A stretch of DNA of 20,927 nt from an uncultured virus (IMG/VR IMGVR_UViG_3300042731_008559). Lineage: Duplodnaviria > Heunggongvirae > Uroviricota > Caudoviricetes. Within the stretch, counting starts at the first letter, position 1. Every line of letters begins with the position of its first letter. This document shows, one piece after another, positions 2-15,527 of this stretch. A model generated the notes under the pieces. It had not been told where the DNA came from, made no database searches, and was given only the letters and a program-made list of their open reading frames with translations. The position numbers and the translations under genes are program-made. The stretch lies in the IMG/VR virus record IMGVR_UViG_3300042731_008559; one strand, written 5' to 3'.

Positions 2-1600
2 GAGGACGCCGAAGAAGCGCTGGTCCTCGAAGAGATGGGCTATCCGCTGCCGCTGTGGGCTCGCATCACAAGGGCCTACACCGAGCATGGAATAGATGAT
101 GGTATCGCCACCGACATCGAGATGATCCGCGTCGTCGACGATGCGGTTCAACAACAGGGAATCGGCAAAAAATGGACGGGAGACGAGCCCGCGGAGCTGA
201 TCGAGCTTGGTTGGAGGCGAAACTTCATCGAGCGGGCCATCGAGCGAGGGCACGACGACGGCGTCTACATCGGGCAGAGGAAGATGCCACTCGAAGAGGC
301 TGCAGAGCTGTGGGTAACGGAGGCAAGGAGCGCTTTTTTCGACAACACGATGCCAGACGTTATCATCAACTTCGATGGGTACCGCGTCGAGATGCTCGAA
401 TCGATCGACCCGCGGGTCGCCTTCTTTGATGACATCTTTGATTGGTCGGTTTCTGGTTCGAGCCGCCCCGAATACGCCTGGGACACCATAGAAAGTCCCC
501 ACGCTCGCCTCTATCTCGTCTCCAAAGTTGAAAAGAGGCGAAACAAACCCGTTGCCATCGCGTGGGCCTGGCGAACTCAGGGGGTCTACGAAGAGGTAGA
601 GGGCGGAACGAGGCCGGGCGGAACTCGTATGGAGATGGTCGAGGTCGAGCCCGGACCCATCGTCGTCATCGACGCGGTCCAGACCATCTACAGGACGCGC
701 AAGGCTAACGTGAAGATCTTGAAGGCGATCGAGGCGCTGGCTCATGCGATGCTCGAAAACGAAGAGACTATCACAGAGGTGCGCATTCAAAACGACGAGC
801 TGAGTTCCTACGAAGTTCAGGAATATCTTTCTTCGCCCTATGCCAGCCCGTGGAAGAAAGTAGGCGACGAGAGCGTGTGGCGTGAAGAGATGCACAAACA
901 CCCGCAGATCGATAAGTTTGGCCAGGGGTGGATGCAGACCCAGTGGCTCCTTGCATCACGCGAATCACCAGACGAGAACCCGCAAGAGTGGAAATGCCCG
1001 CTCCGCACCGAGATGTACGGCGGCATGCCTGAGGGCGGCAACTTCGGATCCGCAACCATGCTGGAGCTGGGCGCCCAGAACATCGCTGAGGCTGCTCACT
1101 GCATCCTTGGCTCTCTCGGAAAGCTGACCAGGCGAGGAGACTCAGGGCAAGACGAGTGGGCGAGGTGGCAGTATTCCCTTGTCTACGAGGTGGCCCATCT
1201 CAAAGAGGAGCTGGGCATCATCAACATGTGGGTGTGGAAGTGGTATGAGTACGGCTGGCATCGGGATACTCAGGAGAAATTCAACGACCCGACGCCGGAC
1301 CAGCTCCCCTACGTCGAGAGATCAGTCGAGAACATCCGAGACGTTGCTCCTCCGCTGGTCGTTCTCGCCGAGCTGAAGCGCGCTCATGTCGAAGCGCAGG
1401 AAGACATGCCTGAGCCGATCAAGGCGGCGGCGCTTTCCTCCTACGACGTAATCATCGCCGTCGCAAACGCTGTTTTCGACGCTGTCGAGGGCTGGCCAGA
1501 GGAAAAGGTCTACAACCCCTTCACGGTTACGCCCCTTCAGGCGGCGACACAGCGGCTCGGAGAGACCATAAATGAGCTACTAACCTACGTGAGGCGATGA
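2..1600 (+). CDS. EMGY-leader family protein 1 (5'-truncated); multi-domain cargo
   Basis: Frame is open from the window edge (EDAEEALVLEEMGYP...). The track's start at 35 is the M of the shared EMGY motif, so the true start is upstream of the window. Stop TGA ends at 1600. Confidence 0.85.
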   Translation, partial: EDAEEALVLEEMGYPLPLWARITRAYTEHGIDDGIATDIEMIRVVDDAVQQQGIGKKWTGDEPAELIELGWRRNFIERAIERGHDDGVYIGQRKMPLEEAAELWVTEARSAFFDNTMPDVIINFDGYRVEMLESIDPRVAFFDDIFDWSVSGSSRPEYAWDTIESPHARLYLVSKVEKRRNKPVAIAWAWRTQGVYEEVEGGTRPGGTRMEMVEVEPGPIVVIDAVQTIYRTRKANVKILKAIEALAHAMLENEETITEVRIQNDELSSYEVQEYLSSPYASPWKKVGDESVWREEMHKHPQIDKFGQGWMQTQWLLASRESPDENPQEWKCPLRTEMYGGMPEGGNFGSATMLELGAQNIAEAAHCILGSLGKLTRRGDSGQDEWARWQYSLVYEVAHLKEELGIINMWVWKWYEYGWHRDTQEKFNDPTPDQLPYVERSVENIRDVAPPLVVLAELKRAHVEAQEDMPEPIKAAALSSYDVIIAVANAVFDAVEGWPEEKVYNPFTVTPLQAATQRLGETINELLTYVRR

Positions 1601-1601
1601 G

Positions 1602-2558
1602 ATGTCCTTCGATTTGAAGATTGAATGCGACGGCAATGAATACGACGCCACCATTGATGATGATGGCGACCTGCTCATCTTCGAGTACGATGCCTCCGAA
1701 GACGAGACGCTCGCCGAGATGGGTTATGAGCCCACAGAATGCATGATGCTTTCGACGGGTTGGAAAGACTTCCGTGCGCTGCTGGAGAAGGACGGTCAGT
1801 GGGAAGACTTCATGGACGGCGTCACCGGCGCCGAAACAACGTTCGAGCTTGACGGTGAGGAGTTCACGGAACGATACGACATGGAGTTTGACGAGTTTCT
1901 GGACTACTTGACTACTTTCCTCAAGAAGTCCCTGGAAGATTTTGACAGCAGAAGCAGGAGTATCGCTCGCATCATCGGAGCGCTTTCGGACAGCTATGGG
2001 ATCAGCATCGTTCTCCACTCGGTGCATGTTGAGGACCCTTCCCGGATACTGGAAGATGTCAGTCTTCAGCACATCCCTGAGATTTTTGAGAACGAGCTTG
2101 TTATCAACGATAAGTCGATAGCGAAGTGGAAACGCGGATCGGCCCTGATCACCAACGACGTAATCGACTTGTACTACACCGAGCACGACATGGGGGAGTA
2201 TGACGACGACTACAGGCCCCCAGGGATGTGGCCAGACTTCTGGACTATGGATAACAAAAACGACATGGATCACGTGCTCGCGAGCTTTGGCCTCGAAGAC
2301 CAAGTCCCGCCACTACCAGAGCGCCCATGGGTTCCGGAGAAAGATCCCGATGGTCCGTATGGTGTCGAGTTCGTCGACTACTATTGGGACCAGCATGCGC
2401 AGGGTGGCAGAGAAATCAACACGACGGTCTGGTATCCCGACCTGGAGTCAGCGAAGCGCCATTTCGAGATCGTCACGGACATCGGAACAGCAAACCAGCA
2501 GACGGAGGGTTTTCGAGTGATCGATCGAGAGGGAGAAATTGTCGCTTGGCATTTGTAG
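1602..2558 (+). CDS. EMGY-leader family protein 2; highly acidic cargo of unknown function
   Basis: 318-aa ORF, GAGG SD, starts right after the previous stop; N-terminus CDGNEYDATIDDDG...DASEDETLAEMGYEPTEC. Confidence 0.88.
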   Translation: MSFDLKIECDGNEYDATIDDDGDLLIFEYDASEDETLAEMGYEPTECMMLSTGWKDFRALLEKDGQWEDFMDGVTGAETTFELDGEEFTERYDMEFDEFLDYLTTFLKKSLEDFDSRSRSIARIIGALSDSYGISIVLHSVHVEDPSRILEDVSLQHIPEIFENELVINDKSIAKWKRGSALITNDVIDLYYTEHDMGEYDDDYRPPGMWPDFWTMDNKNDMDHVLASFGLEDQVPPLPERPWVPEKDPDGPYGVEFVDYYWDQHAQGGREINTTVWYPDLESAKRHFEIVTDIGTANQQTEGFRVIDREGEIVAWHL

Positions 2559-2567
2559 GAGAGTTTC

Positions 2568-2990
2568 ATGACGACATACGACTACGTCACCGAGTTTGAT
2601 CCTGGTTTCAACGAGGGGAAGGTTCGATACGCGGCCCCCACTCACGTCCTTCAGGTCTATGGGACGCCAACGGAAGCGCGCAAGTACATCGCTGAGGAGT
2701 TTGGGCTTCCAGCGATCCCGCCGCCTGTCACCGTGCTTCCTCCTTACGATATTCGCAGCGGCCCCACGCGCACGTTGACGGTCGTTCCCCCTGGCTCAGT
2801 TCCAGGCGACCTGATCTCACAGCCCACCATGTGGAAGCAGATCGTCCCGGCGACGGGACTCGAAGGCTTCGGCACTGTTGCCAGTGGCAACGGCTCTGGC
2901 AACGGTTGGTTTCTCACAATTGGCGCGATCATTGGAGGATTCGTCCTCGCTCGCGTCGCGGCGGCGATGCTCGAACGGCGGGAGCGATGA
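2568..2990 (+). CDS. Small Pro/Gly-rich protein with C-terminal transmembrane helix
   Basis: 140 aa, GGAG SD; Gly-rich linker, then hydrophobic WFLTIGAIIGGFVLARVAAAML and a charged tail; ATGA overlap with the next gene. Confidence 0.8.
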   Translation: MTTYDYVTEFDPGFNEGKVRYAAPTHVLQVYGTPTEARKYIAEEFGLPAIPPPVTVLPPYDIRSGPTRTLTVVPPGSVPGDLISQPTMWKQIVPATGLEGFGTVASGNGSGNGWFLTIGAIIGGFVLARVAAAMLERRER

Positions 2991-3751
2991 AGTCGAAGAC
3001 CTTCGAGTTGGTCTGTGACGATGAGCGTCACACCTTCATCCTCTACGAAGACGGGTCCATGGAGATTGAGAACTTCGACGAGGAAGAAGCCGAGACGCTT
3101 CGAGAGATGGGGTATCGAGAAGACTGTCTGTTTACGCTTGAAGACTATCAGAATCGGCCCCTTCGATTCCTCGTTATTTTCTCGACCTATTTGTGTGGCG
3201 AAAAGCTTCGGCTGCTGCTTCACGGCATGATCGCAGAGTATTTTTACATGGTCCGAGAGGCGGTCCCGACGGACATGGCGAACCATCTCGAAAGAATGAT
3301 GAATGTCATCGAGGAGGGCGACGGTTACAAAAGAGGCGATTGGGTCTGGGCAAAGAAAATGATCCGCAACTGGACTCAATTGAAAAAAGAAGCGCGGTGG
3401 CGCAGAGAGGACAAGGCCATGTATCCCACAGTCGTCGTGGGGCGAGGGCCTGACCCTGAGGTGGAGCGCCGTGTTCAAAAGATTTGCCTAACGATCATTT
3501 CTTTGTACGTCAGAAGCAGCAAGGGGGCGTTGGATTGTGGGCAGTCTGCGGCGAAACGCATTGATGCATGGGACAATGTAGAGGAAATCGTACATAGGAT
3601 AAGAGAGGTCGCCAGAGAACTTGCTGTCGATGAAGTCGTGGAAGCGGGCGGCGGTCTCAATGATATCGGTGACGTCAGGGAAGAGTCTTTCGAGGAATTT
3701 AATAGAGAGATTTTTGAAAAAGCTCTCAACATCATCTTCGAGGAGGACTGA
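2987..3751 (+). CDS. EMGY-leader family protein 3; helical cargo
   Basis: Start reassigned to ATG 2987 (ATGA overlap); N-terminus CDDERHTFILYEDG...DEEEAETLREMGYREDC. Confidence 0.87.
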   Translation: MKSKTFELVCDDERHTFILYEDGSMEIENFDEEEAETLREMGYREDCLFTLEDYQNRPLRFLVIFSTYLCGEKLRLLLHGMIAEYFYMVREAVPTDMANHLERMMNVIEEGDGYKRGDWVWAKKMIRNWTQLKKEARWRREDKAMYPTVVVGRGPDPEVERRVQKICLTIISLYVRSSKGALDCGQSAAKRIDAWDNVEEIVHRIREVARELAVDEVVEAGGGLNDIGDVREESFEEFNREIFEKALNIIFEED

Positions 3752-3753
3752 CG

Positions 3754-4482
3754 GTGCCGGTTTCGATCACTATCTACTGCGACGACGAGCGTCAGGACGT
3801 CATCATCTATGAGGACGGATCCTTCGAGTTCGTGGGCTACGACTTCAGCGAGGACTTGACGCTCGAAGAGCTTGGATATGAGCCCTCGGATTGCCTGAGC
3901 GCGGCAAGGGAACTTGAAGGCGACATGGTCAACTTTCTCCTGGGGTCGTGGACGGGCCTCGCATTCAACGCCGGCATCGAAGACATTCCTGGGACGGCCG
4001 TCGAATACGTCCTCGACTGCTTTGCTCACGTCGCTCAGCAGTTTGGAGAGGCGGTTCCAGATTTCAAGTGGGTGGCTGGGGATGTCATAACGATAGCGCG
4101 TGCTCACAACATGAACGTCGACAACGTCGAGCTGGAAGAGAGCATGTGGATTCGTGCCGACCTGATGCTGAAGTGGTTGCGTCAGTATGGTGTGCGCAGC
4201 GAGCCGGTTCCTTACGACCGCGAAGAGATGGAAAAAGTCCTCAATGAGTACATCGTCCTGCTCAAGGATTTTCTCAAGTACATCCTGAACGAGGACAACC
4301 TGCTAGAAGACATGGCCAGCGGAGACATTGATACGACCGTCAGCCAGCTTCGTATCATCATGTCGGACTATGCCAGGGCCACTGGAGACCTCGAAGACCC
4401 GACCGCCAGCGAGATCGAAGAGGTCGAGTTCCGAGAGGAATCGTGGCAGCTCGCTCGGCTCTTGCAGTATTTGGAGGCGTGA
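3754..4482 (+). CDS. EMGY-leader family protein 4; Imm5-like helical cargo (tentative)
   Basis: GTG start after GAGGAGG; leader CDDERQDVIIYEDG...DFSEDLTLEELGYEPSDC; cargo has LDCFAHV and C-terminal EESWQLARLLQYLE. Confidence 0.87.
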   Translation: MPVSITIYCDDERQDVIIYEDGSFEFVGYDFSEDLTLEELGYEPSDCLSAARELEGDMVNFLLGSWTGLAFNAGIEDIPGTAVEYVLDCFAHVAQQFGEAVPDFKWVAGDVITIARAHNMNVDNVELEESMWIRADLMLKWLRQYGVRSEPVPYDREEMEKVLNEYIVLLKDFLKYILNEDNLLEDMASGDIDTTVSQLRIIMSDYARATGDLEDPTASEIEEVEFREESWQLARLLQYLEA

Positions 4483-5315
4483 TGTCAGTGATCGTTCCTG
4501 TGAACTGTGAGAATACTCAGATCGAGATCGAATTCTTTGAACACGGGAGCTTCGACGTTCACGGCTACGATATCGAAGAAGCCAAAGTGCTCGAAGAGAT
4601 GGGCTACGACACACCCGAGTGTCTTGCGTTCCTTCGGAGGTTGAGCCAAAGGACACTCCGGTTTCTCCTCAAGCGGGTGCCACTCGACCCCTACGAGCTG
4701 ATGATTACCTACCTGCTCGACTGCCTGCAGCACTCCGCGGACTACGCCGAGTTCGATGAGTTCATCCCCTGGATGGATCAGGTTGCCGAGGCGATCCGGG
4801 AACTGGGGACTGAGGGAGAGCCCCTGCAAGGCGAGCTGTATGAGGAAGCTATCGGCCAGTACCGAAAGTTCAAGGAGTGGTGGACGCTCGAATATGGTGA
4901 TTACATCTCTGGCGAAAGAGCAATTCAGAGTGGTTTTCGTGAATATGGGGGTCAAGAATTTGACGGGAACTACATGGCCTACCTCAACGACATAGTAAAG
5001 GCACACCTTCGATGGATCTTGGGGATGGCGATCGATCAAGACCCCAAGCGCGCGTGGGACCCAGGCGGCATGGGCTTTCCCAAGCTCTACCATTTCGTTG
5101 ACGCCATGGCCAAGGGTGCCTCTTATTTTAGGGTATTCAAGGAATACCCAGAAATCACATGGGAGGATACTCTTGTCTACGAAGAGGGCATTTGGTTTCC
5201 GGCAACGGATGCTCCTCAGACTGCACAAACAATCGATTTTCACGAACGCTTTTTCCCCGAGGAGCGCGCCTGGCAGATTGGCCGCTACGTCAAGTATCTT
5301 GAAGGCACGGAGTAG
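4482..5315 (+). CDS. EMGY-leader family protein 5; Imm5-like helical cargo (tentative)
   Basis: ATG 4482 (TGATG overlap, GGAGG SD); leader CENTQIEIEFFEHG...DIEEAKVLEEMGYDTPEC; cargo has LDCLQHS and C-terminal EERAWQIGRYVKYLE. Confidence 0.87.
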   Translation: MSVIVPVNCENTQIEIEFFEHGSFDVHGYDIEEAKVLEEMGYDTPECLAFLRRLSQRTLRFLLKRVPLDPYELMITYLLDCLQHSADYAEFDEFIPWMDQVAEAIRELGTEGEPLQGELYEEAIGQYRKFKEWWTLEYGDYISGERAIQSGFREYGGQEFDGNYMAYLNDIVKAHLRWILGMAIDQDPKRAWDPGGMGFPKLYHFVDAMAKGASYFRVFKEYPEITWEDTLVYEEGIWFPATDAPQTAQTIDFHERFFPEERAWQIGRYVKYLEGTE

Positions 5316-5317
5316 CC

Positions 5318-6124
5318 ATGGAGTGCATGTTCAAGGTCGGTGATGACTACGTCGGCATCGAGATCGACGACGAGGGGAATCTTCTCATCGACCAGGACGA
5401 CATCGAGGAGGCAGTCGTTCTCGCCGAGATGGGCTACCCCATGAGTGACCTTGTCAAGTTCTACGACGCCTGGGCTCACCTCGAATACAACGAGCGCTGG
5501 AAGATCGTGAACCGCGGCGGCGATTTCGCGACGAGCGGCGATATTGGTGCGCTCCCTGTCTACAGCTATCTCAACGCGGAGCAGCGAGCGTGCCTCTCAC
5601 TGAGTCTGACCGAGAAAGACAGGGCCGACGCTGCGCTCTATGCCGACAACCTCAACCCAGAGCTTCGTCTTCAGATGATCGAGAGCATCGGGACGGATGA
5701 AGCGTGGTCGAACTTTCTGGGCGAGTACCGATTCCTCGACGAGCAGCGACAGCGACAGCTCATCGACCAGCTCGCTCCCGAGTGGAAGGGCTGGCTCGCC
5801 CGCAAGGCGCGGGTGCTGACATATCCTCATCGTTTTGAGCTGATACTTGAAGCCCCGGACGGCGAGAAGATGGAGTTCCTGCAGACGCAGCAGTGGCTGA
5901 CGCAGAACCAGCAGTTCGTCCTGATCAACTCACTGGAGGACGAAGAATCTCTCTTCCACGTGCTCAGGTTGCCGCTCCAGCTCGCGATCACCTCTGACCA
6001 GAGGTTCGCCTTCGCCGATGCGATCGAGGACCCAGGACTGAGGGAAGAGCTGGCCCGCGTAGCGCCAGGACTCACTGATCAGCAGCGGGCTCTTCTGATC
6101 GATCCTGAGCTTGAGCCTCTTTGA
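5318..6124 (+). CDS. EMGY-leader family protein 6; cargo of about 7 short helical repeats
   Basis: GGAG SD; leader ...IDDEG...DIEEAVVLAEMGYP; ~24-27 aa units containing L[TND]xx(Q)RxxLxxxL. Confidence 0.87.
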   Translation: MECMFKVGDDYVGIEIDDEGNLLIDQDDIEEAVVLAEMGYPMSDLVKFYDAWAHLEYNERWKIVNRGGDFATSGDIGALPVYSYLNAEQRACLSLSLTEKDRADAALYADNLNPELRLQMIESIGTDEAWSNFLGEYRFLDEQRQRQLIDQLAPEWKGWLARKARVLTYPHRFELILEAPDGEKMEFLQTQQWLTQNQQFVLINSLEDEESLFHVLRLPLQLAITSDQRFAFADAIEDPGLREELARVAPGLTDQQRALLIDPELEPL

Positions 6125-6818
6125 TTCGCCGTGTAGAAACTTCGATCGCTTCGTCGCAAATATCACTTCCGCAGAAGATGCGCCCCAGCTCGACAGCCGC
6201 GACGCCGGCCGAGCCGCTCCCGCAGAAGGGGTCGCAGACGACTTCGCCAGGCTCAGTGCTTTGGCTGATGAGCGTCCGGAGGACGGGGACTGGCTTCTCG
6301 GTGGGGTAGCCCTTGTAGATGCGTTTCTCTCTGATGACGTCTGGAATGGAGAGGTCGTTGAGCTTTCGCTTTCCTTTTTCGAAGAAGAGGATCAGTTCGT
6401 ACCGGGCTCTGTAGTGATAGCCCATGCCGATGGCGACCTTATCCCATACGAGCGGCTTGTGGAACGTGAACCCGGCCTCTTCGGCGATCGGCTTTGCCAC
6501 AAACATCGTTTCCTGGTCACAGAACAGGTAGCAATGTGAATCCATCCTGAGGACGCGGTACAGTACTCTGAACAGATCATCGAAGCGTGAGTTTGGGAAG
6601 ATTTGAAACCAGTCATTTGAAGAGGATTTCGAGTGGCTGAGCCTGGTCGTTGTCCCTTTTGCTCGGTGTTTCTCCAGTGATTCGTAGGGAGGGTCGGTCA
6701 CGACGAGGTCGACCGATTCGTCCTCAAGACTTCCCAAAAAGTCAAGCGCATCCTGCTTAACGACCTGTGAAGTGACAAATCGCGGTCCCCCGCGAAAAAA
6801 GAGCGGTTCCTGTTTCAT
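6072..6818 (-). CDS. Site-specific DNA methyltransferase (N4-cytosine/N6-adenine, beta class), orphan
   Basis: Catalytic motif VVTDPPY near the N-terminus; YPTEKP and SAM-binding DPFCGSGS near the C-terminus (beta order). Start placed at ATG 6818 (MKQEP); the upstream part of the 581-aa track ORF is antisense to real plus-strand genes. Confidence 0.95.
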   Translation of the reverse strand: MKQEPLFFRGGPRFVTSQVVKQDALDFLGSLEDESVDLVVTDPPYESLEKHRAKGTTTRLSHSKSSSNDWFQIFPNSRFDDLFRVLYRVLRMDSHCYLFCDQETMFVAKPIAEEAGFTFHKPLVWDKVAIGMGYHYRARYELILFFEKGKRKLNDLSIPDVIREKRIYKGYPTEKPVPVLRTLISQSTEPGEVVCDPFCGSGSAGVAAVELGRIFCGSDICDEAIEVSTRRIKEAQAQDRSEEPAADQ

Positions 6819-6825
6819 CGGCGGC

Positions 6826-6855
6826 AATATAGCACATGCAATATCCTCTGGACAA
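6826..6855 (-). promoter_or_regulatory. Putative sigma70-type promoter for a leaderless methyltransferase mRNA
   Basis: Minus strand TTGTCC-18 nt-TATATT with an extended -10 TG; ATG is 7 nt downstream of the -10 and there is no SD. Confidence 0.55.
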
Positions 6856-6877
6856 GGTAGGTTGCATATGTTACCCC
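6849..6877 (+). promoter_or_regulatory. Promoter/operator element copy 1: TGGACA-N6-GTTGCATATGTTAC
   Basis: Intergenic; 12/14 match to palindrome GTAGCATATGCTAC at 6861-6874; second degenerate box ATAGCACATGCAAT at 6829-6842. Confidence 0.7.
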
Positions 6878-6908
6878 TAGGATATGTGCGAGCGAAAGGA
6901 CCATCGTG

Positions 6909-7667
6909 ATGTCCAAGGAAAAAGAGCGATGCCCCGAGTGCAGAATGTTGGGCCAGCACAAGCTTCAGTGCAGTCGTCGTGAGGACGGAGGGCAGGTGCG
7001 CCTGCCTATGAAGATGGTCAAGCGCGCTGTGCCTCATCCAGAGCACCCCTCGGGAAAGGACCACTTCTCCGTCCAGGTGCTCTCTGACCCATGGTGTTGG
7101 GTCGTTGTCCGCTTCAAGCTCGAAACGATGCACGAGGACATGGGGACGCTCATCACCATGCTCGGGGCCGACTACGGATCGAAAAGCCCCAAGATGCTCC
7201 GGGACGATCTGTTCCGAATGGAGTTCCCCTTCAGCGATGGAAATACTCACGCTGGCATGTTCGCGCTCGAAGCGTGGCAGGCGCTCAGCCGCAACATGTG
7301 GTGCGGCGATCTCGACGAAGAGCTTTCCTTCTTCAGGACCCATCGAACTATCTGGGAGCTGGGCCACGAGCTGACCTACCACGAGGAGCTGAAGATTCTC
7401 CGTTTCCTGCGCGATAACCCCGAGAAGCAGTGGGGGAAGAAGGGGGCTGTCCTCATCGAGCTTCAGGACACGCTGGGCATTGGCGGCGGCGCCATCCTCA
7501 CGCTCATCGAGCCGAGCGGCGGCTTCGAGGATTACCAGTACGTCGTCACCATCGGCGGCTTCCGCTCCGGCAACCCCTTTACCATCGACCTGCCAGCCGT
7601 CGAAGCGCGGATCGCCCTGATGGAGGAACAGGGGCCTCCAGACCCCTGGGAGGAGTCGGCAGATTGA
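6909..7667 (+). CDS. Hypothetical protein with N-terminal C2HC-type zinc-finger motif
   Basis: AAAGGA SD; CPECRMLGQHKLQC at the N-terminus; GTG 6906 is an alternative start. Confidence 0.8.
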   Translation: MSKEKERCPECRMLGQHKLQCSRREDGGQVRLPMKMVKRAVPHPEHPSGKDHFSVQVLSDPWCWVVVRFKLETMHEDMGTLITMLGADYGSKSPKMLRDDLFRMEFPFSDGNTHAGMFALEAWQALSRNMWCGDLDEELSFFRTHRTIWELGHELTYHEELKILRFLRDNPEKQWGKKGAVLIELQDTLGIGGGAILTLIEPSGGFEDYQYVVTIGGFRSGNPFTIDLPAVEARIALMEEQGPPDPWEESAD

Positions 7668-8065
7668 TTTGGTTTGTTTCACTCGACGAGGGTCGTTTTC
7701 ACATCTACTGCAAAGACGGCCGCAAGAACGACGGCAAGTGGTTCGATCCTGATGATATCGAAGGGATGAAGGCGTTCTGTAAGAAGATGGAGATCGATCA
7801 CGTCTGCGGCCTCTCATCGGTTGACTTTCCTGAGGAGAATGGGCTCGACGAGGACTTCAATGCCAATGAGGTCATCGGCAAGGTGCTATGGTCAGGTCCC
7901 GCTCTCCTTCACCTCCAGGAAGGTCTCGTGTCCCTGTACCGCGCCTATCACTCGGGCCAGCTCACCGAGGACGAAGCCAACAGGCTGGAGAAGGCTGGCG
8001 ACGAGATCAAAGCTATCTACGATGAGGCCGAGCCTCGTCTCAACCCCGGTGGTAACCCCGAGTGA
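7664..8065 (+). CDS. Hypothetical protein
   Basis: TTG start overlapping the previous TGA, GGAGG SD; MIWFVSLDEGRFHIYC... Confidence 0.72.
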   Translation: MIWFVSLDEGRFHIYCKDGRKNDGKWFDPDDIEGMKAFCKKMEIDHVCGLSSVDFPEENGLDEDFNANEVIGKVLWSGPALLHLQEGLVSLYRAYHSGQLTEDEANRLEKAGDEIKAIYDEAEPRLNPGGNPE

Positions 8066-11294: not shown

Positions 11295-11564
11295 ATGCCC
11301 GATGAGAACAAGCTCAAGATACTTGCCGACCACGAGGTCCGAATCGTCGAGAGCTGCGTCACCTGCAAGCACTCCAGCTTCAAATTCGCCTGGTGGGGCA
11401 TCTGCAAGAACTGGAGTTACCTCCACGCCAAGCATATGGATGCTCGATTCAAGCCGGCTCACGTGGCCTTCGTCTGCAAATACTACATCGAGGATCCAGA
11501 GGTCGAGACCAAGACGGGTCTCGGAAAGTACTTTGTCATCATCCGTTCGTGGATGGGATTATGA
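11295..11564 (+). CDS. Small Cys-rich (putative metal-binding) protein
   Basis: GGAGGTG SD; SCVTCKH...C...C. Confidence 0.72.
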   Translation: MPDENKLKILADHEVRIVESCVTCKHSSFKFAWWGICKNWSYLHAKHMDARFKPAHVAFVCKYYIEDPEVETKTGLGKYFVIIRSWMGL

Positions 11565-12043
11565 AACGCACTTGCATCAAATGCAGAGGCACTGGCTATG
11601 CGCCGATGATCATTGGCCGGCAGGAATACTACGAGTTTCATCGCTCGCAGATGATGGAGTACCTGGAACAGTGGCATGACTTCTCGGAGCGAGAAGAAGG
11701 CCCTGGAGACGTCAACCCTTGGGGGTGCTGGTATCTGACCGAAGAGGGCCGTTCTTGCATGCAGATGCGGATCTGCCGCTTCTGTGGAGGCACTGGCTAC
11801 TACCCGATGGGGCCTTGTCCACAGACGCAGCAGCGCGCCTGGGAGCTACTCCTCGATTGGACACCCGAGCAAGCGCTTCAGCGCGTCTTGGAATTGGGCC
11901 GCATTGTCGACAGAGAGGAGGGCATCGAGGACGATGACACCGTCGTCCTGAGGATGGACGAAATTCGCACCATTCACAACGTATTACTCCTGTGTGTCAA
12001 CATCATAGATTCACTAAACCGAGAGAGGGAGAGACAACAATGA
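11561..12043 (+). CDS. Protein with two DnaJ-type CxxCxGxG zinc-finger motifs
   Basis: ATG 11561 (ATGA overlap); CIKCRGTG and CRFCGGTG. Confidence 0.78.
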   Translation: MKRTCIKCRGTGYAPMIIGRQEYYEFHRSQMMEYLEQWHDFSEREEGPGDVNPWGCWYLTEEGRSCMQMRICRFCGGTGYYPMGPCPQTQQRAWELLLDWTPEQALQRVLELGRIVDREEGIEDDDTVVLRMDEIRTIHNVLLLCVNIIDSLNRERERQQ

Positions 12044-12351: not shown

Positions 12352-12834
12352 ATGGGCTATCGAACCACCAAAATCGAAACCCCCATGCTCGTCAAACGCT
12401 GGTGGGCTCGGCCCGTCTGCTGGTTTATCGGTCACAAGTGGTATGTGCTCGGCATCAACATGGGGAAGAACGCCGGGCTCTCGCACCTCCATCCAGACGC
12501 CGGCATCGACAAGTTCTGCACCCGTTGCGGAGCCGAATGGTACGACGGCAAAATGGTGACCGATGGCTTCCAACGCGCGCCTCGCGACAAAGAACCCATC
12601 CCCCCGAAGAAGAAGCTGAAGAAGCCGGTTATCAAGAAGCCGAAGCGTCCGAAGCGTCCAAAGCGTCCGAAGCCACCGACGAGCCCATGGAGGATGAAGA
12701 TGCGTCCGAAGACGAGCCCATGGAGGATGAAGATGCCTCCGAAGCCGCCTATGCCGAAGATGCCAAAGATGCCGAAAATGTCTGACTTTGGTGGCGGCAT
12801 CTTTGACTCCACCATATTCGACAAGGACGATTAG
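12352..12834 (+). CDS. DUF1660-like Zn-binding domain plus Pro/Lys/Met-rich repeat tail
   Basis: CWFIGHKW...CTRCG motif, then PKR, TSPWRMKM and MPK repeats; directly abuts both neighbours. Confidence 0.75.
   Translation: MGYRTTKIETPMLVKRWWARPVCWFIGHKWYVLGINMGKNAGLSHLHPDAGIDKFCTRCGAEWYDGKMVTDGFQRAPRDKEPIPPKKKLKKPVIKKPKRPKRPKRPKPPTSPWRMKMRPKTSPWRMKMPPKPPMPKMPKMPKMSDFGGGIFDSTIFDKDD
12640..12780 (+). repeat. Intragenic tandem repeats (9 bp x3-4; 33 bp x2; 9 bp x3)
   Basis: CCGAAGCGT units from 12640; GACGAGCCCATGGAGGATGAAGATGC[G/C]TCCGAA at 12678-12710 and 12711-12743; ATGCCRAAR units at 12751-12777. Confidence 0.9.
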
Positions 12835-12836
12835 CC

Positions 12837-13334
12837 ATGACGACGGAAAAAGAAAAGAACAGCGACATCGCGATGCCTGAAAGAATCTTTCAGCGCACCG
12901 TCTCCATCTTGACAAACGAACGCATCACAACCGTTACGTCGTCCTCTGACCAGGGGGGATCGTCCGGAGGATACTTCGGTGGCTCCATGCTCTTTACCAA
13001 TCCCCAGATCGTCAAGAACGCACATGACGCCGTCTCCTACCTTCGGACATACCTGACAGGAGACCTCTCCGCGCTTCCTGAGACTCGCTCTATCGATCGC
13101 GACGAGATGATCGGCGAGAAAGAGACGGCGCGGGGAGTATCGATACGCACCGGGAGAAACGGCTACATCGTCGAGCCCCACTTCAACAACGGACATGGCT
13201 GGATCAAGTCGATAGGAGACGAGGTCGTCTTCACCGATCTGACCGATATGCTCAAGTTCTGTATGGACCACCTCGAAGGCAAGCCAGGAACCGCCTGGTG
13301 GGACTGGGAGGGCGAGAAGATATGGACAAAGTAA
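12837..13334 (+). CDS. Hypothetical protein
   Basis: 165 aa; AAGGA upstream. Confidence 0.75.
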   Translation: MTTEKEKNSDIAMPERIFQRTVSILTNERITTVTSSSDQGGSSGGYFGGSMLFTNPQIVKNAHDAVSYLRTYLTGDLSALPETRSIDRDEMIGEKETARGVSIRTGRNGYIVEPHFNNGHGWIKSIGDEVVFTDLTDMLKFCMDHLEGKPGTAWWDWEGEKIWTK

Positions 13335-13948
13335 AAGTCGGCGTAGCAGCCATCATCGAGCGCGACGGCAAGATCCTCATGGGCCAGAGGAAAAACTCAC
13401 ACGGGGCCGGCCGCTGGTCCTTTCCAGGTGGACACATCGAGCCCGGTGAGACGCCAGAGCAGGCCTGCGAGCGCGAGGCAATGGAGGAGACGGGACTGCG
13501 GTTGCTCAACATTCGCCGTGGCCCATGGACCAACGATATCTTTCTTGCAGAGAAGAAGCACTACATCACCCTGTTCCTCTTTGCCGATGCAGAAGGCACG
13601 CCTGCGCTTCGAGAACCTGATAAGTGCGCAAAATGGCTCTGGGTTGAAAAGGACAACATTCCATTTCCCCAGTTTCTCCCCGTTTTCAATCTGATGAAGG
13701 AACACCCTGACATCCTTGGAAAGCAGCCGGATGGTGTCTCCGACGACGCAGGTGTCCCCGTTGAGATCCAAAGGGGGCTCCAGTCCAATGCCGATAAGCT
13801 CGATGCGATGGGCGGGACCTGTCCGGAGTGCCAGATCACCGCGGACATGTTCCGATACCTTCCCGTCGCCAACTACTTCAACCTCGGCACCAGATGCACG
13901 GGGACATGCAAGACATGCGGCATAGGCCCATGGGAGGAAATACTGTGA
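13322..13948 (+). CDS. Nudix hydrolase (NUDT15/MutT-like) with C-terminal zinc-ribbon extension
   Basis: Nudix box GGHIEPGETPEQACEREAMEETGL; KVGVAAII, RKNSHGAGRW, TNDIF...KHYITLF and EPDKC..W.W are NUDT15-like; tail CPEC...CKTC. Start ATG 13322. Confidence 0.93.
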   Translation: MDKVKVGVAAIIERDGKILMGQRKNSHGAGRWSFPGGHIEPGETPEQACEREAMEETGLRLLNIRRGPWTNDIFLAEKKHYITLFLFADAEGTPALREPDKCAKWLWVEKDNIPFPQFLPVFNLMKEHPDILGKQPDGVSDDAGVPVEIQRGLQSNADKLDAMGGTCPECQITADMFRYLPVANYFNLGTRCTGTCKTCGIGPWEEIL

Positions 13949-14775
13949 GCGAGACAGAAAAACCACGCATTCAAGAGATGATCGCAGTCCATCTCATCAG
14001 CGACAAGGAGGGGAGCCCGGCTCATGGCTGGGTTCATACCCATGGGCTCGACAAGTTCGGGCTCCCCGAGCTGGAGATTCGCGGGCTCCAGACGTTTCTC
14101 TACGGGATGGCTGGCAGCATCCTTAATCAGGTCGGCGAGTACATGATCGAGCTGAAAGAGGAGGGGCGAGCCATCAATCTCGGTGAGTCCATGCAGCTCG
14201 GAGACAAGTTCTGCATCTTTCAGTTCGCCAAGCTCCCTCCTATCGAAGGTCATGAGCACCACTACGAAGTCGAGCGCTGGTGTCTCGTCGAGCCCCCTGG
14301 AGCGCACGATTTCTGCGAAGGCTGCAAGACAGGACCACTCTCCTATGAGCACGGGGAGGAAGCCTGTGACTGCGGGCAGTGCGGCTGCAACCACGGGGTC
14401 GACGAAGAGCAGAAGATGGAGGTCGAGTTTCTCGACGCGGTGGGTGAAAAAATACCCTACCACGCCATGGAGGCGATTGCTGCCTGGACGCTAGCCGACC
14501 CCCAGGCTGCCTTCGCAATGCTTATCGATCGACTCGATGAGAAGGGAATGGCTACCATCGAAGTGGTCAGCGATGAAGAGAAGTACGTGAGACTCACCGA
14601 TCGCGTCAAAGAGGCCATCGAAGCCGGTAAGTCCTCTGACCTCATCGATGAGATCCTCGACGGCTGGAAGCACCAGAAGCATGTCGAGGCGATCCAGGGC
14701 GAGGAGTTCTGCGAAATGCCCGTCTCTGGGCGCGTTGCCAAGCTCGTCGAGCTGTTCGGCGAGACTCCGTTATAA
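13945..14775 (+). CDS. Hypothetical protein with DUF4261/DUF4262-like HTHGL-FGLPELEI motif and central Cys-rich linker
   Basis: GTG 13945 (GTGA overlap, GGAGG SD); WVHTHGLDKFGLPELEI; CEGC...CDCGQCGC. Confidence 0.75.
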   Translation: MSETEKPRIQEMIAVHLISDKEGSPAHGWVHTHGLDKFGLPELEIRGLQTFLYGMAGSILNQVGEYMIELKEEGRAINLGESMQLGDKFCIFQFAKLPPIEGHEHHYEVERWCLVEPPGAHDFCEGCKTGPLSYEHGEEACDCGQCGCNHGVDEEQKMEVEFLDAVGEKIPYHAMEAIAAWTLADPQAAFAMLIDRLDEKGMATIEVVSDEEKYVRLTDRVKEAIEAGKSSDLIDEILDGWKHQKHVEAIQGEEFCEMPVSGRVAKLVELFGETPL

Positions 14776-15239: not shown

Positions 15240-15527
15240 ATGTCGCTCGGCGAAGCAAAGATGGCAGCGCTCTGCGCGCTCAAAAACTGTGGCGAACAGG
15301 ATGGTCGATTTCAGACCTATGGACACCTCGCTGGCTGGGTCGTTGACGAGTTCGATTACAAGGATCGACTTGTGTCCGAATTTCTCAACTGGTGTGTATG
15401 GCGCAAGATTACGAAGCCCACACGGTTCGACCGTCCTGACGATGGAAAACGTGTGAGCGGTTACGAGATCGATTTTCAGCAGATCGAACGAGCGCTCGAA
15501 TTTCTGGAGGCGAAAGCACATGCCTAA
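15240..15527 (+). CDS. Single-unit homolog of the repeat in the downstream 845-aa protein (possible winged-helix)
   Basis: GGGGG SD; AALCAL...EFLNWCVWR...YEIDFQQIERAL matches the repeat pattern of the next gene. Confidence 0.75.
   Translation: MSLGEAKMAALCALKNCGEQDGRFQTYGHLAGWVVDEFDYKDRLVSEFLNWCVWRKITKPTRFDRPDDGKRVSGYEIDFQQIERALEFLEAKAHA

What the first reader, a model, noticed from the sequence alone, without database searches (positions are those of the whole stretch)
2..6124. Tandem array of six genes with a shared acidic N-terminal 'EMGY' leader and variable cargo: candidate undescribed protein-targeting/delivery system
Seen: the ORFs at <2, 1602, 2987, 3754, 4482 and 5318 align without gaps over their N-termini: (EDAEEALVLEEMGY); CDGNEYDATIDDDGDLLIFEYDASEDETLAEMGYEPTEC; CDDERHTFILYEDGSMEIENFDEEEAETLREMGYREDC; CDDERQDVIIYEDGSFEFVGYDFSEDLTLEELGYEPSDC; CENTQIEIEFFEHGSFDVHGYDIEEAKVLEEMGYDTPEC; VGDDYVGIEIDDEGNLLIDQDDIEEAVVLAEMGYP. 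D-x2-E-x3-L-x-E-[ML]-G-Y is invariant, the upstream G is present in all five complete copies, and flanking Cys are present in four. The remainder of each protein (about 200-500 aa) falls into at least four apparently unrelated types. The genes are tightly coupled in one operon that probably continues upstream, and I saw the motif in none of the genes right of the methyltransferase. Established: a conserved N-terminal tag with variable cargo is the architecture of polymorphic effector systems and packaging signals (T4 internal-protein capsid targeting sequence, PVC/eCIS leaders, LXG/MIX trafficking domains). Inference: the leader is a docking signal that loads diverse cargo into a virion or onto a shared partner. 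A small metal-binding or adaptor domain is an alternative.
Basis: partly seen in the sequence, partly recalled or inferred. Interest (0 to 1): 0.85.

Follow-up and report, generated by a model that had tools for sequence, protein, structure and literature searches.

The report
New acidic N-terminal handle, variable cargo
Six neighbouring genes of a large uncultivated phage-like element all begin with the same small, very acidic, folded protein module that no curated library describes, joined to different binding-type domains, so it looks like a reusable handle whose partner is still unknown.

Summary
Six co-oriented genes, packed with gaps of -4 to +9 nt (<2-1600, 1602, 2987, 3754, 4482, 5318), start with one ~48-residue module. 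The tetrapeptide E[ML]GY occurs six times in the six-frame translation, only at these N-termini. A profile of five leaders finds 37 true members among 1.84 billion representatives, and the module sits at the N-terminus in 36 of them. Relatives carry ankyrin repeats, DUF5983_C or helical domains behind it. Pfam, NCBIfam, PHROGs, PDB sequences and fold searches give no match for the module. AlphaFold2 predicts a compact beta-beta-beta-alpha unit (pLDDT 95-97 in context) that runs into the cargo without a linker. It has two near-invariant Cys and a mean net charge of -11. It is therefore a real, uncurated, mobile N-terminal domain, amplified in this element and apparently in two other large contigs. 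The virion-loading reading is untested and has no support so far. The neighbours are DNA methyltransferases and NUDIX genes, no structural genes were found, and the L-x-E site is kept in only 24 of 44 members. p3, p4 and p5 are probably one end-to-end family, which leaves three or four cargo types in the window. My best reading is a constant docking handle on variable binder proteins used in host takeover (confidence 0.4).

The parts
2..1600 (+). p1, 5'-truncated by the window edge (532 aa seen). Only the last 14 residues of the module are visible (2-43). The cargo is long, and its last ~200 aa form a module also found without the leader.
   Evidence: HMM E 3.9e-4 on the stub. P0052 (776 aa) and P0053 (498 aa) share 43-45% identity over 39% of p1 and have other N-termini.
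1602..2558 (+). p2, 318 aa, module at residues 1-48 (1602-1745), pI 4.09. Its own cargo type is shared with P0011 and P0023.
   Evidence: (E 3.1e-23)
2568..2990 (+). 140-aa gene inside the array without the module. It has a proline-rich middle and a C-terminal hydrophobic helix and matches no family.
   Evidence: leader HMM with filters off gives score -1.8 and hhalign gives probability 0.4%.
2987..3751 (+). p3, 254 aa, module at 2987-3130, helical-type cargo (assignment tentative).
   Evidence: E 5.6e-21; GGGAG before the ATG
3754..4482 (+). p4, 242 aa, GTG start, module at 3754-3897, helical cargo ending in the W-Q-L-x-R helix.
   Evidence: (E 2.5e-24)
4482..5315 (+). p5, 277 aa, module at 4482-4625 (Cys9, Cys47), all-helical cargo ending in the W-Q-I-x-R helix.
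   Evidence: E 3.6e-23. AF2 pTM 0.81, pLDDT 95-97 for residues 1-50; one 64%-identical relative, P0002.
5318..6124 (+). p6, 268 aa, module at about 5318-5455 without either Cys. Its own cargo type is shared with P0006. It is the last gene of the array.
   Evidence: (E 8.4e-20)
6072..7100 (-). Convergent N6/N4 DNA methyltransferase that closes the array. The true start is uncertain, because the long ORF to 7817 overlaps a + strand ORF.
   Evidence: PF01555, E 2.4e-29; phrog_67, E 3.4e-44

Best explanation
The six genes are a tandemly amplified multigene family of a large (at least 123 kb by the collection's record) uncultivated, phage-like element seen in wetland metagenomes.

Each protein begins with the same ~48-residue module. 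It consists of a three-stranded beta-meander, a helix, and a second helix that runs straight into the cargo. The module is very acidic (mean net charge -11). It has an invariant Asp before helix 1 and an invariant Gly after it, a near-invariant hairpin Gly, and two near-invariant Cys, one at the end of strand 1 and one at the start of helix 2.

Different non-enzymatic, binder-like domains follow it. In p3-p5 the cargo is a ~200-residue helical domain. p1, p2 and p6 have other types. Relatives carry ankyrin repeats or DUF5983_C.

I read the module as a constant handle that ties variable target-binding domains to one shared partner. This is adaptor logic, used in host takeover or counter-defence, and the array would have grown by duplication plus replacement of the 3' part.

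Shown here: the domain exists, it is N-terminal, it is modular, it is amplified in this element, and it is absent from curated libraries. Inferred: that it docks to a partner, what that partner is, and when the genes act.
For: Domain and its extent:
- Alignments.
- The 5-leader profile finds 42 proteins at E<=1e-3 among 1.84e9 representatives. Five of these are long repeat proteins of other families and were dropped.
- In 36 of the remaining 37 the module starts within the first 9 residues. The exception, P0026, has an in-frame Met at residue 81, just before it.
- Conservation over 44 members: D30 44/44, G41 44/44, G22 43/44, C47 41/44, C9 39/44.

Fold:
- AF2 gives pLDDT 95-97 for residues 1-50 of p5 in context and 80.7 for the module alone, with the same secondary structure.
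- Helix 2 continues into the cargo without a linker.

Modularity:
- Ank families in 11 of 38 and DUF5983_C in 3 of 38.
- The p1 C-terminal module occurs without the leader.
- 77 ankyrin loci from prokaryote genomes contain no leader.

Amplification:
- Six copies here.
- Six leader-ankyrin proteins all list a 143,612-bp longest contig, and two others list a 269,630-bp contig. That each set lies on one contig is inferred from the equal lengths.

Binder-like cargo and context:
- No enzyme or toxin family in any cargo.
- The neighbours are DNA methyltransferases, NUDIX genes and, in G001, a GT4-conflict glycosyltransferase.
- The leader proteins are more acidic (pI 4.05-4.80) than the other genes of the window, most of which lie at pI 5-6.
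Against: - No partner is identified. No gene co-occurs with the module in both contexts I could read, apart from a methyltransferase and NUDIX genes.
- The conserved residues (helix N-cap Asp, C-cap Gly, hairpin Gly, buried Leu) are those expected of a fold, not necessarily of a binding surface.
- Roughly half of the non-ankyrin members share a terminal helix as well. These may be one end-to-end family, which weakens the picture of a handle on unrelated cargo (12 of 27 have the W-[QF]-x motif once the false hit in p2 is set aside).
- 'Host takeover' rests on two gene neighbourhoods only.
- The viral nature rests on IMG/VR's classification of one relative and on PHROG hits. I found no capsid or terminase.
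Confidence: 0.4

Rival explanations
1. Virion-loading leader. The module targets the proteins into the prohead, like the T4 capsid targeting sequence or the long propeptides of giant-phage head proteins. It may then be cut off after the conserved L-x-E, so that the cargo is ejected into the host with the DNA.
For: - The module is strictly N-terminal in 36 of 37 members.
- The genes form a tandem paralog family in a large element. Giant phages have head-protein paralog families with N-terminal propeptides of 20 to more than 100 residues that are thought to act like the T4 CTS (passages of PMC5694885).
- L-x-E directly before [ML]-G is present in 6 of 6 window copies.
Against: - L/I-x-E at that place is kept in only 24 of 44 members.
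- It lies inside a confidently predicted helix of a compact domain.
- No prohead protease, capsid, portal or terminase was found near the array or in the one complete relative.
- The neighbours are DNA-modification and NUDIX genes.
Confidence: 0.2
2. No separate function. A few secondary fusions (ankyrin, DUF5983_C) were added, and the biology lies in the C-terminal parts.
For: - p4, p5 and ten relatives share both the module and a terminal W-[QF]-x helix at equivalent positions.
- pLDDT of the module is higher in the full protein (95-97) than alone (80.7), which fits packing against the cargo.
- The invariant residues are of structural types.
Against: - The module occurs on at least five cargo types with no detectable similarity to each other.
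- The p1 cargo module and ankyrin repeats exist independently of it.
- A cap would not be expected to stay recognisable (E down to 1e-20) while everything behind it is replaced.
Confidence: 0.2
3. Self-association or metal/redox switch. The module brings the paralogs together in homo- or hetero-oligomers, or its two Cys form a disulfide or half a metal site that regulates the cargo.
For: - The two Cys are kept together in 39 of 44 members and lost together in 3.
- In the ankyrin subgroup, His replaces Tyr before the invariant Asp (H in 12 of 44).
- Overlapping or abutting stop and start codons fit products made in fixed proportion.
Against: - There are only two conserved ligands.
- Three members, p6 among them, have neither Cys yet keep the rest of the module.
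- Two members keep one Cys only.
Confidence: 0.1

Closest known systems
T4 capsid targeting sequence and the N-terminal propeptides of giant-phage head paralog families (SPN3US, phiKZ)
   Same: An N-terminal element shared by several proteins of a large phage. The proteins are paralogs, often in arrays. The cargo is otherwise diverse (passages of PMC5694885).
   Different: The CTS is a 10-20-residue propeptide removed by the prohead protease. Here the element is a ~48-residue predicted folded domain continuous with the cargo. The putative cleavage motif is kept in 24 of 44 members. No head genes or protease were found nearby, and there is no sequence similarity.
Polymorphic toxins, including phage MuF toxins
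   Same: A constant N-terminal domain with C-terminal parts replaced by recombination, encoded by phages (PMC5576092 and PMC12226406: search listing and start of the abstracts only).
   Different: No cargo here matches a toxin or enzyme family. No small immunity gene follows each copy. That the MuF domain is several times larger is recalled, not tested.
Ankyrin proteins of large eukaryotic DNA viruses that carry a small constant adaptor (poxvirus Ank/PRANC F-box, recalled; ASFV MGF505-1R recruiting cullin-RING ligase, PMC13342108, listing only)
   Same: Viral multigene families in which a variable repeat-type binder is joined to a small constant module that recruits shared machinery. This is the working model I propose.
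   Different: Those modules are C-terminal and act on eukaryotic ubiquitin ligases. Here the module is N-terminal and the genes have Shine-Dalgarno motifs. No sequence or fold match was found.
Helical immunity-type proteins (DUF416 structures 3f7c and 2q9r; chain B of the T6S deaminase toxin entry 7jtu; an 'Imm-5-like' phage protein in BFVD)
   Same: The helical cargo of p5 aligns with them. VIA gives Z 9.4 (rmsd 4.4, 165 aligned), 8.5 and 8.3. Foldseek BFVD gives probability 0.80, E 1.3, TM 0.34/0.43.
   Different: These scores lie below the level the tool itself calls meaningful for helical bundles (about 13). Pfam gives no hit even at E up to 10. This concerns the cargo, not the module.
DUF5983 (PF19419)
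   Same: The C-terminal domain of three or four relatives (P0015, P0016, P0018, P0021) matches it, best E 3e-14.
   Different: DUF5983 is uncharacterised. In E. coli it is reported downstream of the CbtA toxin (passages of PMC10790755). None of the six window proteins carries it.

Membership tests
T4-type capsid targeting sequence / head-protein propeptide | N-terminal position | tested here: met
   The module starts within the first 9 residues in 36 of 37 members. The exception has a Met just before the module.
T4-type capsid targeting sequence / head-protein propeptide | Short propeptide (10-20 residues in T4) rather than a folded domain | tested here: not met
   About 48 conserved residues are predicted as beta-beta-beta-alpha, with pLDDT 95-97 in context and 80.7 alone. 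The length criterion comes from PMC5694885. Giant-phage propeptides can be longer.
T4-type capsid targeting sequence / head-protein propeptide | Conserved prohead-protease site (L/I-x-E in T4, recalled; A/S-x-E in SPN3US and phiKZ) at the end of the leader | tested here: inconclusive
   L-x-E is present in 6 of 6 window copies but in only 24 of 44 members of the family. Cleavage itself cannot be tested with these tools.
T4-type capsid targeting sequence / head-protein propeptide | Protein present in the virion; genes associated with head genes and a prohead protease | not testable with these tools
   No virion data exist. No head or protease gene was found in the window or in G001. The rest of the window's contig could not be fetched.
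Polymorphic toxin systems (including MuF) | C-terminal toxin domain | tested here: not met
   0 of 38 members match a toxin or enzyme family in Pfam. Only Ank families, DUF5983_C and two weak single hits appear. NCBIfam gives only ankyrin-type names.
Polymorphic toxin systems (including MuF) | Cognate immunity gene directly downstream of each toxin gene | tested here: not met
   The leader genes abut one another (spacings -4 to +9 nt). The only interposed gene is the 140-aa ORF at 2568-2990.
Any curated protein family for the N-terminal module (Pfam-A, NCBIfam, PHROGs) | Match of the first ~50 residues above or near the family threshold | tested here: not met
   Pfam: (E up to 10). The only item is UAE_UbL, E 0.06, 14 bits against a cut-off of 30.8, on p3. 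PHROGs. NCBIfam.
Known fold for the N-terminal module | Structural match to a solved chain | tested here: inconclusive
   VIA against 48,161 chains gives a best Z of 3.5 (6iy0_A, rmsd 3.1, 50 aligned) and none at Z 5 or more. Foldseek PDB finds nothing at E<=1e-3. The PDB sequence profile gives a best E of 0.015 on a crystallin. The domain is small, so a miss proves little.
Zinc ribbon / treble-clef type metal-binding domain | Four conserved metal ligands | tested here: not met
   Only C9 (39 of 44) and C47 (41 of 44) are conserved. His at position 29 occurs in 12 of 44, the ankyrin subgroup.
Imm5 / DUF416-like helical immunity proteins (cargo of p5) | Sequence or fold match | tested here: inconclusive
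   VIA Z of 9.4, 8.5 and 8.3 and BFVD probability 0.80 at E 1.3. Pfam gives no hit at E up to 10 in 21 helical-type members.

The most novel reading that the evidence does not exclude
The module is a previously unrecognised trafficking or recruitment domain of large phages. It would be a folded, strongly acidic N-terminal handle that delivers interchangeable binder domains (ankyrin, helical, others) to one machine. That machine could be the prohead, giving a new kind of capsid-loading domain. It could instead be a host or phage complex such as a protease, polymerase or defence system, giving a prokaryotic-virus counterpart of the F-box/PRANC adaptor logic. Either way it would also be a portable tag for loading or recruiting chosen proteins.
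Probability: 0.3. Interest if true: 0.8.

Novelty: new variant of a known kind. Interest (0 to 1): 0.55.

Why it matters
Large uncultivated phages are full of genes with no assignable role. A small domain that is kept while everything behind it is exchanged, and that is multiplied six-fold in one genome, gives a way into such a set. Finding its partner would assign a common pathway to about forty protein clusters at once.

If the module is a loading or recruitment handle, it would add a new mechanism to phage host takeover or virion assembly, and it would provide a compact fusion tag. If it is only the conserved core of a fast-evolving family, the array still marks a hotspot of diversifying binder proteins. 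That pattern is typical of genes engaged in conflict with the host.

Tried and rejected
**Fetching the rest of the contig and related contigs**
- An exact 50-base pattern from the window start found nothing in viral contigs.
- p1 and P0023 found no confirmed locus in metagenome contigs.
- P0023, P0019 and the 845-aa protein found nothing in viral contigs.
- P0018 found nothing in genome contigs.
- I therefore could not see whether the array continues upstream.

**Other searches**
- The window has no match in 50,697 phage records, either as DNA or with the 845-aa protein.
- No whole genome is held for the window.
- Searching genome contigs with the ankyrin member P0009 brought back 77 ankyrin loci. 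None contains the module.

**Homodimer test**
- The module, two copies plus zinc, gave no verdict (score 0.01, mark 0.42). This says nothing either way.

**Structure and feature look-ups**
- ESM Atlas gave no usable hit by features, and its own model is poor (pLDDT 0.37), so the structural rows mean nothing.
- Foldseek with the whole p5 model found nothing at E<=1e-3 in PDB or BFVD.

**The 140-aa ORF inside the array**
- To my eye it resembled a degenerate leader (an E-A-x-x-Y-I-A-E-E-F-G-L-P stretch). The HMM with filters off (score -1.8) and hhalign (probability 0.4%) reject this.

**Dropped hits and weak comparisons**
- Five long proteins among the 42 profile hits are repeats of other families (cadherin/RTX, SpaA, DUF5801, wHTH-Hsp90_Na-associated, DUF3920) and were dropped.
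- hhalign between cargo groups gave at most 22% probability, apart from DUF5983-type against P0036 at 58.7%.

**Sequencing runs**
- No RNA holder is listed, so nothing can be said about expression.
- Contigs of four wetland runs cover the array at 99% identity or more, with no informative rearrangement.

**Earlier notes and hallmark genes**
- The search of earlier findings held nothing on this window or on the p5 sequence.
- Terminase_6N and Phage_capsid were not found in G001. Other hallmark families were not tried beyond the PHROGs scan of 115 ORFs of 200 aa or more.

Full report
**1. What is in the sequence**

The left 6.1 kb of the window carries seven co-oriented + strand genes. They are p1 (<2-1600, cut by the window edge), p2 (1602-2558), a 140-aa gene (2568-2990), p3 (2987-3751), p4 (3754-4482, GTG start), p5 (4482-5315) and p6 (5318-6124). 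Successive genes are separated by 1, 9, -4, 2, -1 and 2 nt. Each start is preceded by a GGAG-type Shine-Dalgarno motif, so this is one bacterial-type operon that runs in from beyond the window. It ends against a convergent N6/N4 DNA methyltransferase (PF01555 E 2.4e-29; phrog_67 E 3.4e-44).

Six of the seven proteins share their N-termini. The six-way alignment has invariant D, E, L, E, G and Y over the part that p1 still shows. The five complete copies add an invariant hairpin Gly and are 28-36% identical to p5 over 50 residues.

The tetrapeptide E[ML]GY occurs six times in the six-frame translation of all 20,927 bases, only at these N-termini. An HMM of the leaders hits these six ORFs and nothing else in the window.

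**2. The leader is a domain family, not a local oddity**

A profile of the five complete leaders was run against 1.84 billion representative proteins. It returned 42 proteins at E<=1e-3, seven of them at E<=1e-10.

- Five are long repeat proteins matched by several partial stretches. Pfam shows they belong to other repeat families, so I dropped them.
- Three of the remaining 37 are the window's own products.
- In 36 of the 37 the match projects to a start within the first nine residues. The exception, P0026, has an in-frame Met at residue 81, directly before the module.
- A second, word-limited search with 30 leaders added five members.

Over 44 members the conservation is D30 44/44, G41 44/44, G22 43/44, C47 41/44, C9 39/44, E39 35/44 and L37 32/44. 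Both Cys are present in 39 members, both are absent in 3 (p6 and two others), and one is present in 2. The mean net charge of the module is -11 (range -16 to -3).

All members come from metagenomes. None has an informative name. Several list longest contigs of 123-270 kb.

**3. Cargo**

Pfam on 38 members finds ankyrin families in 11 and DUF5983_C in 3. It finds nothing for the module itself. NCBIfam gives only ankyrin-type names, and PHROGs gives nothing for the six window proteins.

BLASTP clustering of the parts behind the module (E<=1e-2) gives the following groups:
- an ankyrin group of 12, of which one, P0017, may be a chance link;
- a DUF5983 group of 4, with P0036 joining by hhalign at 58.7%;
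- a p2 type (p2, P0011, P0023);
- a p5 type (p5, P0002, P0007);
- a P0013 type with 3 members;
- a p6 type (p6, P0006);
- 13 singletons, including p1, p3 and p4.

The picture of unrelated cargo is too strong for part of the family. Of 27 members that are neither ankyrin nor DUF5983 type, 12 end in the same helix, W-[QF]-[ILH]-x-[RLH]-x3-[YF]-[LMI]. This count sets aside a false regex hit in p2. Most of the rest end in a similar amphipathic helix. hhalign repeatedly pairs these terminal helices at equivalent positions, but at probabilities of 22% or less. p4 and p5, and probably p3, therefore belong to one end-to-end type consisting of the module, about 200 helical residues and the terminal helix. 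I count three or four cargo types in the window.

Real domain exchange is nevertheless shown in three ways:
- the ankyrin and DUF5983_C fusions;
- p1, whose last ~200 residues recur at 43-45% identity in two proteins with other N-termini and no module;
- the 77 ankyrin loci of prokaryote genomes, which hold no module.

**4. Structure**

AlphaFold2 on p5 with a 38-row alignment gives pTM 0.81. Residues 1-50 have pLDDT 95-97, with strands at 2-9, 12-19 and 24-27 and a helix at 31-39. Helices from residue 46 onwards continue into an all-helical body. The terminal helix is again confident. The module alone (55 residues) gives the same secondary structure at pLDDT 80.7.

There is no linker between module and cargo. 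In the ankyrin members the first repeat begins about ten residues after the second Cys (by eye).

- For the module, the fold searches are empty. VIA against 48,161 chains gives a best Z of 3.5, Foldseek PDB finds nothing at E<=1e-3, and the PDB sequence profile gives a best E of 0.015.
- For the helical body of p5, the best matches are two DUF416 structures (Z 9.4 and 8.3) and chain B of a T6S deaminase toxin entry (Z 8.5). A BFVD 'Imm-5-like' phage protein has probability 0.80 at E 1.3.
- These values lie under the level the tool calls meaningful for helical bundles, and Pfam gives nothing even at E up to 10. I keep this only as a lead that the cargo could be an inhibitor or immunity-type binder.

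**5. The element and its neighbourhood**

No genome is held for the window. It has no match among 50,697 phage records. The array is found at 99% identity or more in contigs of several wetland metagenome runs.

The rest of the window holds the following, among many ORFs without any match:
- a NUDIX gene (13298-13948);
- a DUF4026_C protein;
- a DUF5662 protein (phrog_20637);
- a second methyltransferase (phrog_15480).

One relative, P0012, lies on an IMG/VR record of 182,770 bases (G001, CheckV estimate 95% complete) as a single copy. G001 shares only the module and a methyltransferase with the window.

Directly downstream of the G001 copy are two NUDIX genes. Glycosyltransferases follow, one of them of the GT4-conflict family. 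Elsewhere G001 has ParB, helicase, exonuclease, integrase, methyltransferases and thymidylate enzymes. It has no recognisable capsid, portal or large terminase among 115 ORFs of 200 aa or more, nor with PF03237 or PF05065.

'Phage-like' therefore rests on IMG/VR's classification and on the PHROG hits. The two readable neighbourhoods point to DNA modification and nucleotide-signal functions rather than to virion assembly.

Six leader-ankyrin proteins list the same 143,612-bp longest contig, and two helical members list a 269,630-bp contig. This suggests amplification in other elements too, but I could not fetch those contigs.

**6. Mechanism**

What is shown is a small, compact, very acidic N-terminal domain. 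It stays recognisable while the rest of the protein is replaced, it is always first in the chain, and it is multiplied within single elements. The cargo, where it can be named, is of a protein-binding kind (ankyrin, helical) and never enzymatic.

The simplest reading is adaptor logic, in which variable binders are held by a constant handle to one partner. From the neighbourhood I place it in host takeover or counter-defence (confidence 0.4).

The rivals are these:
- **Virion-loading signal (0.2).** The strict N-terminal position and the tandem paralogs recall giant-phage head families, and L-x-E stands before [ML]-G in all six copies. Against it, that motif holds in only 24 of 44 members, it lies inside a predicted helix, and no head gene is in sight.
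- **No separate function (0.2).** The module would be merely the conserved core of one fast-diverging family.
- **Self-association or Cys-based metal/redox function (0.1).** The homodimer prediction gave no verdict and counts neither way.

**7. Novelty**

I found no curated family, solved structure or paper that describes the module.
- Libraries and structures.
- Literature searches. None of them addressed it. They were keyword searches of open-access text, so absence is not proven.

The architecture, a constant N-terminal part with exchangeable C-terminal part in a viral multigene family, is a known kind. The domain itself, its fold-like nature and its binder-type cargo make it a new variant of that kind. 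Its function remains open.

Noticed in passing
window 4565-4603 and 5363-5428 (read laying loose ends): In three or four wetland runs, contigs of other origin match only about 40 bases of the conserved core of the p5 and p6 leaders and then run on unlike the window for up to 255 bases. Read by eye, the flanks of the p5-core match encode leader-like peptides (an acidic D-D-D-G hairpin before it, G-Y-P-x-S-D-C after it). So further leader genes exist in the same communities.
   Followed up: partly
window 2-1600 (last ~200 residues of p1); P0052, P0053: The C-terminal module of p1, with a conserved A-E-A-A-H-C-I-L-G-S-L-G-K stretch, recurs in a 776-aa and a 498-aa metagenomic protein that have unrelated N-terminal parts and no leader. 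It matches no Pfam family.
   Followed up: partly
L001 10711-11672 and 14184-17739; window 13298-13948: NUDIX genes lie directly downstream of the single leader gene in the IMG/VR relative and about 7 kb downstream of the array in the window. The relative also has three glycosyltransferases nearby, one of the GT4-conflict family.
   Followed up: partly
window 11393-12043: A 216-aa protein has two C-x-x-C-x-G-x-G-Y motifs, which is the spacing I recall from the DnaJ-type cysteine-rich zinc finger. It has 10 Cys in all and no Pfam match above threshold.
   Followed up: no
window 12352-12834: A very basic 160-aa protein (pI 10.4) has a proline/lysine-rich repetitive tail (P-K-R-P-K and S-P-W-R-M-K-M repeats). 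It matches no family.
   Followed up: no
window 15520-18057: An 845-aa ORF, the longest in the window, has no Pfam or PHROG match and no relative in the phage records or in IMG/VR.
   Followed up: partly
window 6072-7817 (-) and 6906-7667 (+): The methyltransferase domain fills only the last ~210 residues of a 581-aa minus-strand ORF. The front part of that ORF overlaps a 253-aa + strand ORF, so the real methyltransferase gene is probably much shorter than the ORF.
   Followed up: no
window 13298-13948 and 13828-14775: The NUDIX ORF has a Cys-rich C-terminal extension. It overlaps by 120 bases the listed start of the next ORF, which carries DUF4026_C (E 1.4e-10). The true start of the second gene is probably further downstream.
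   Followed up: no
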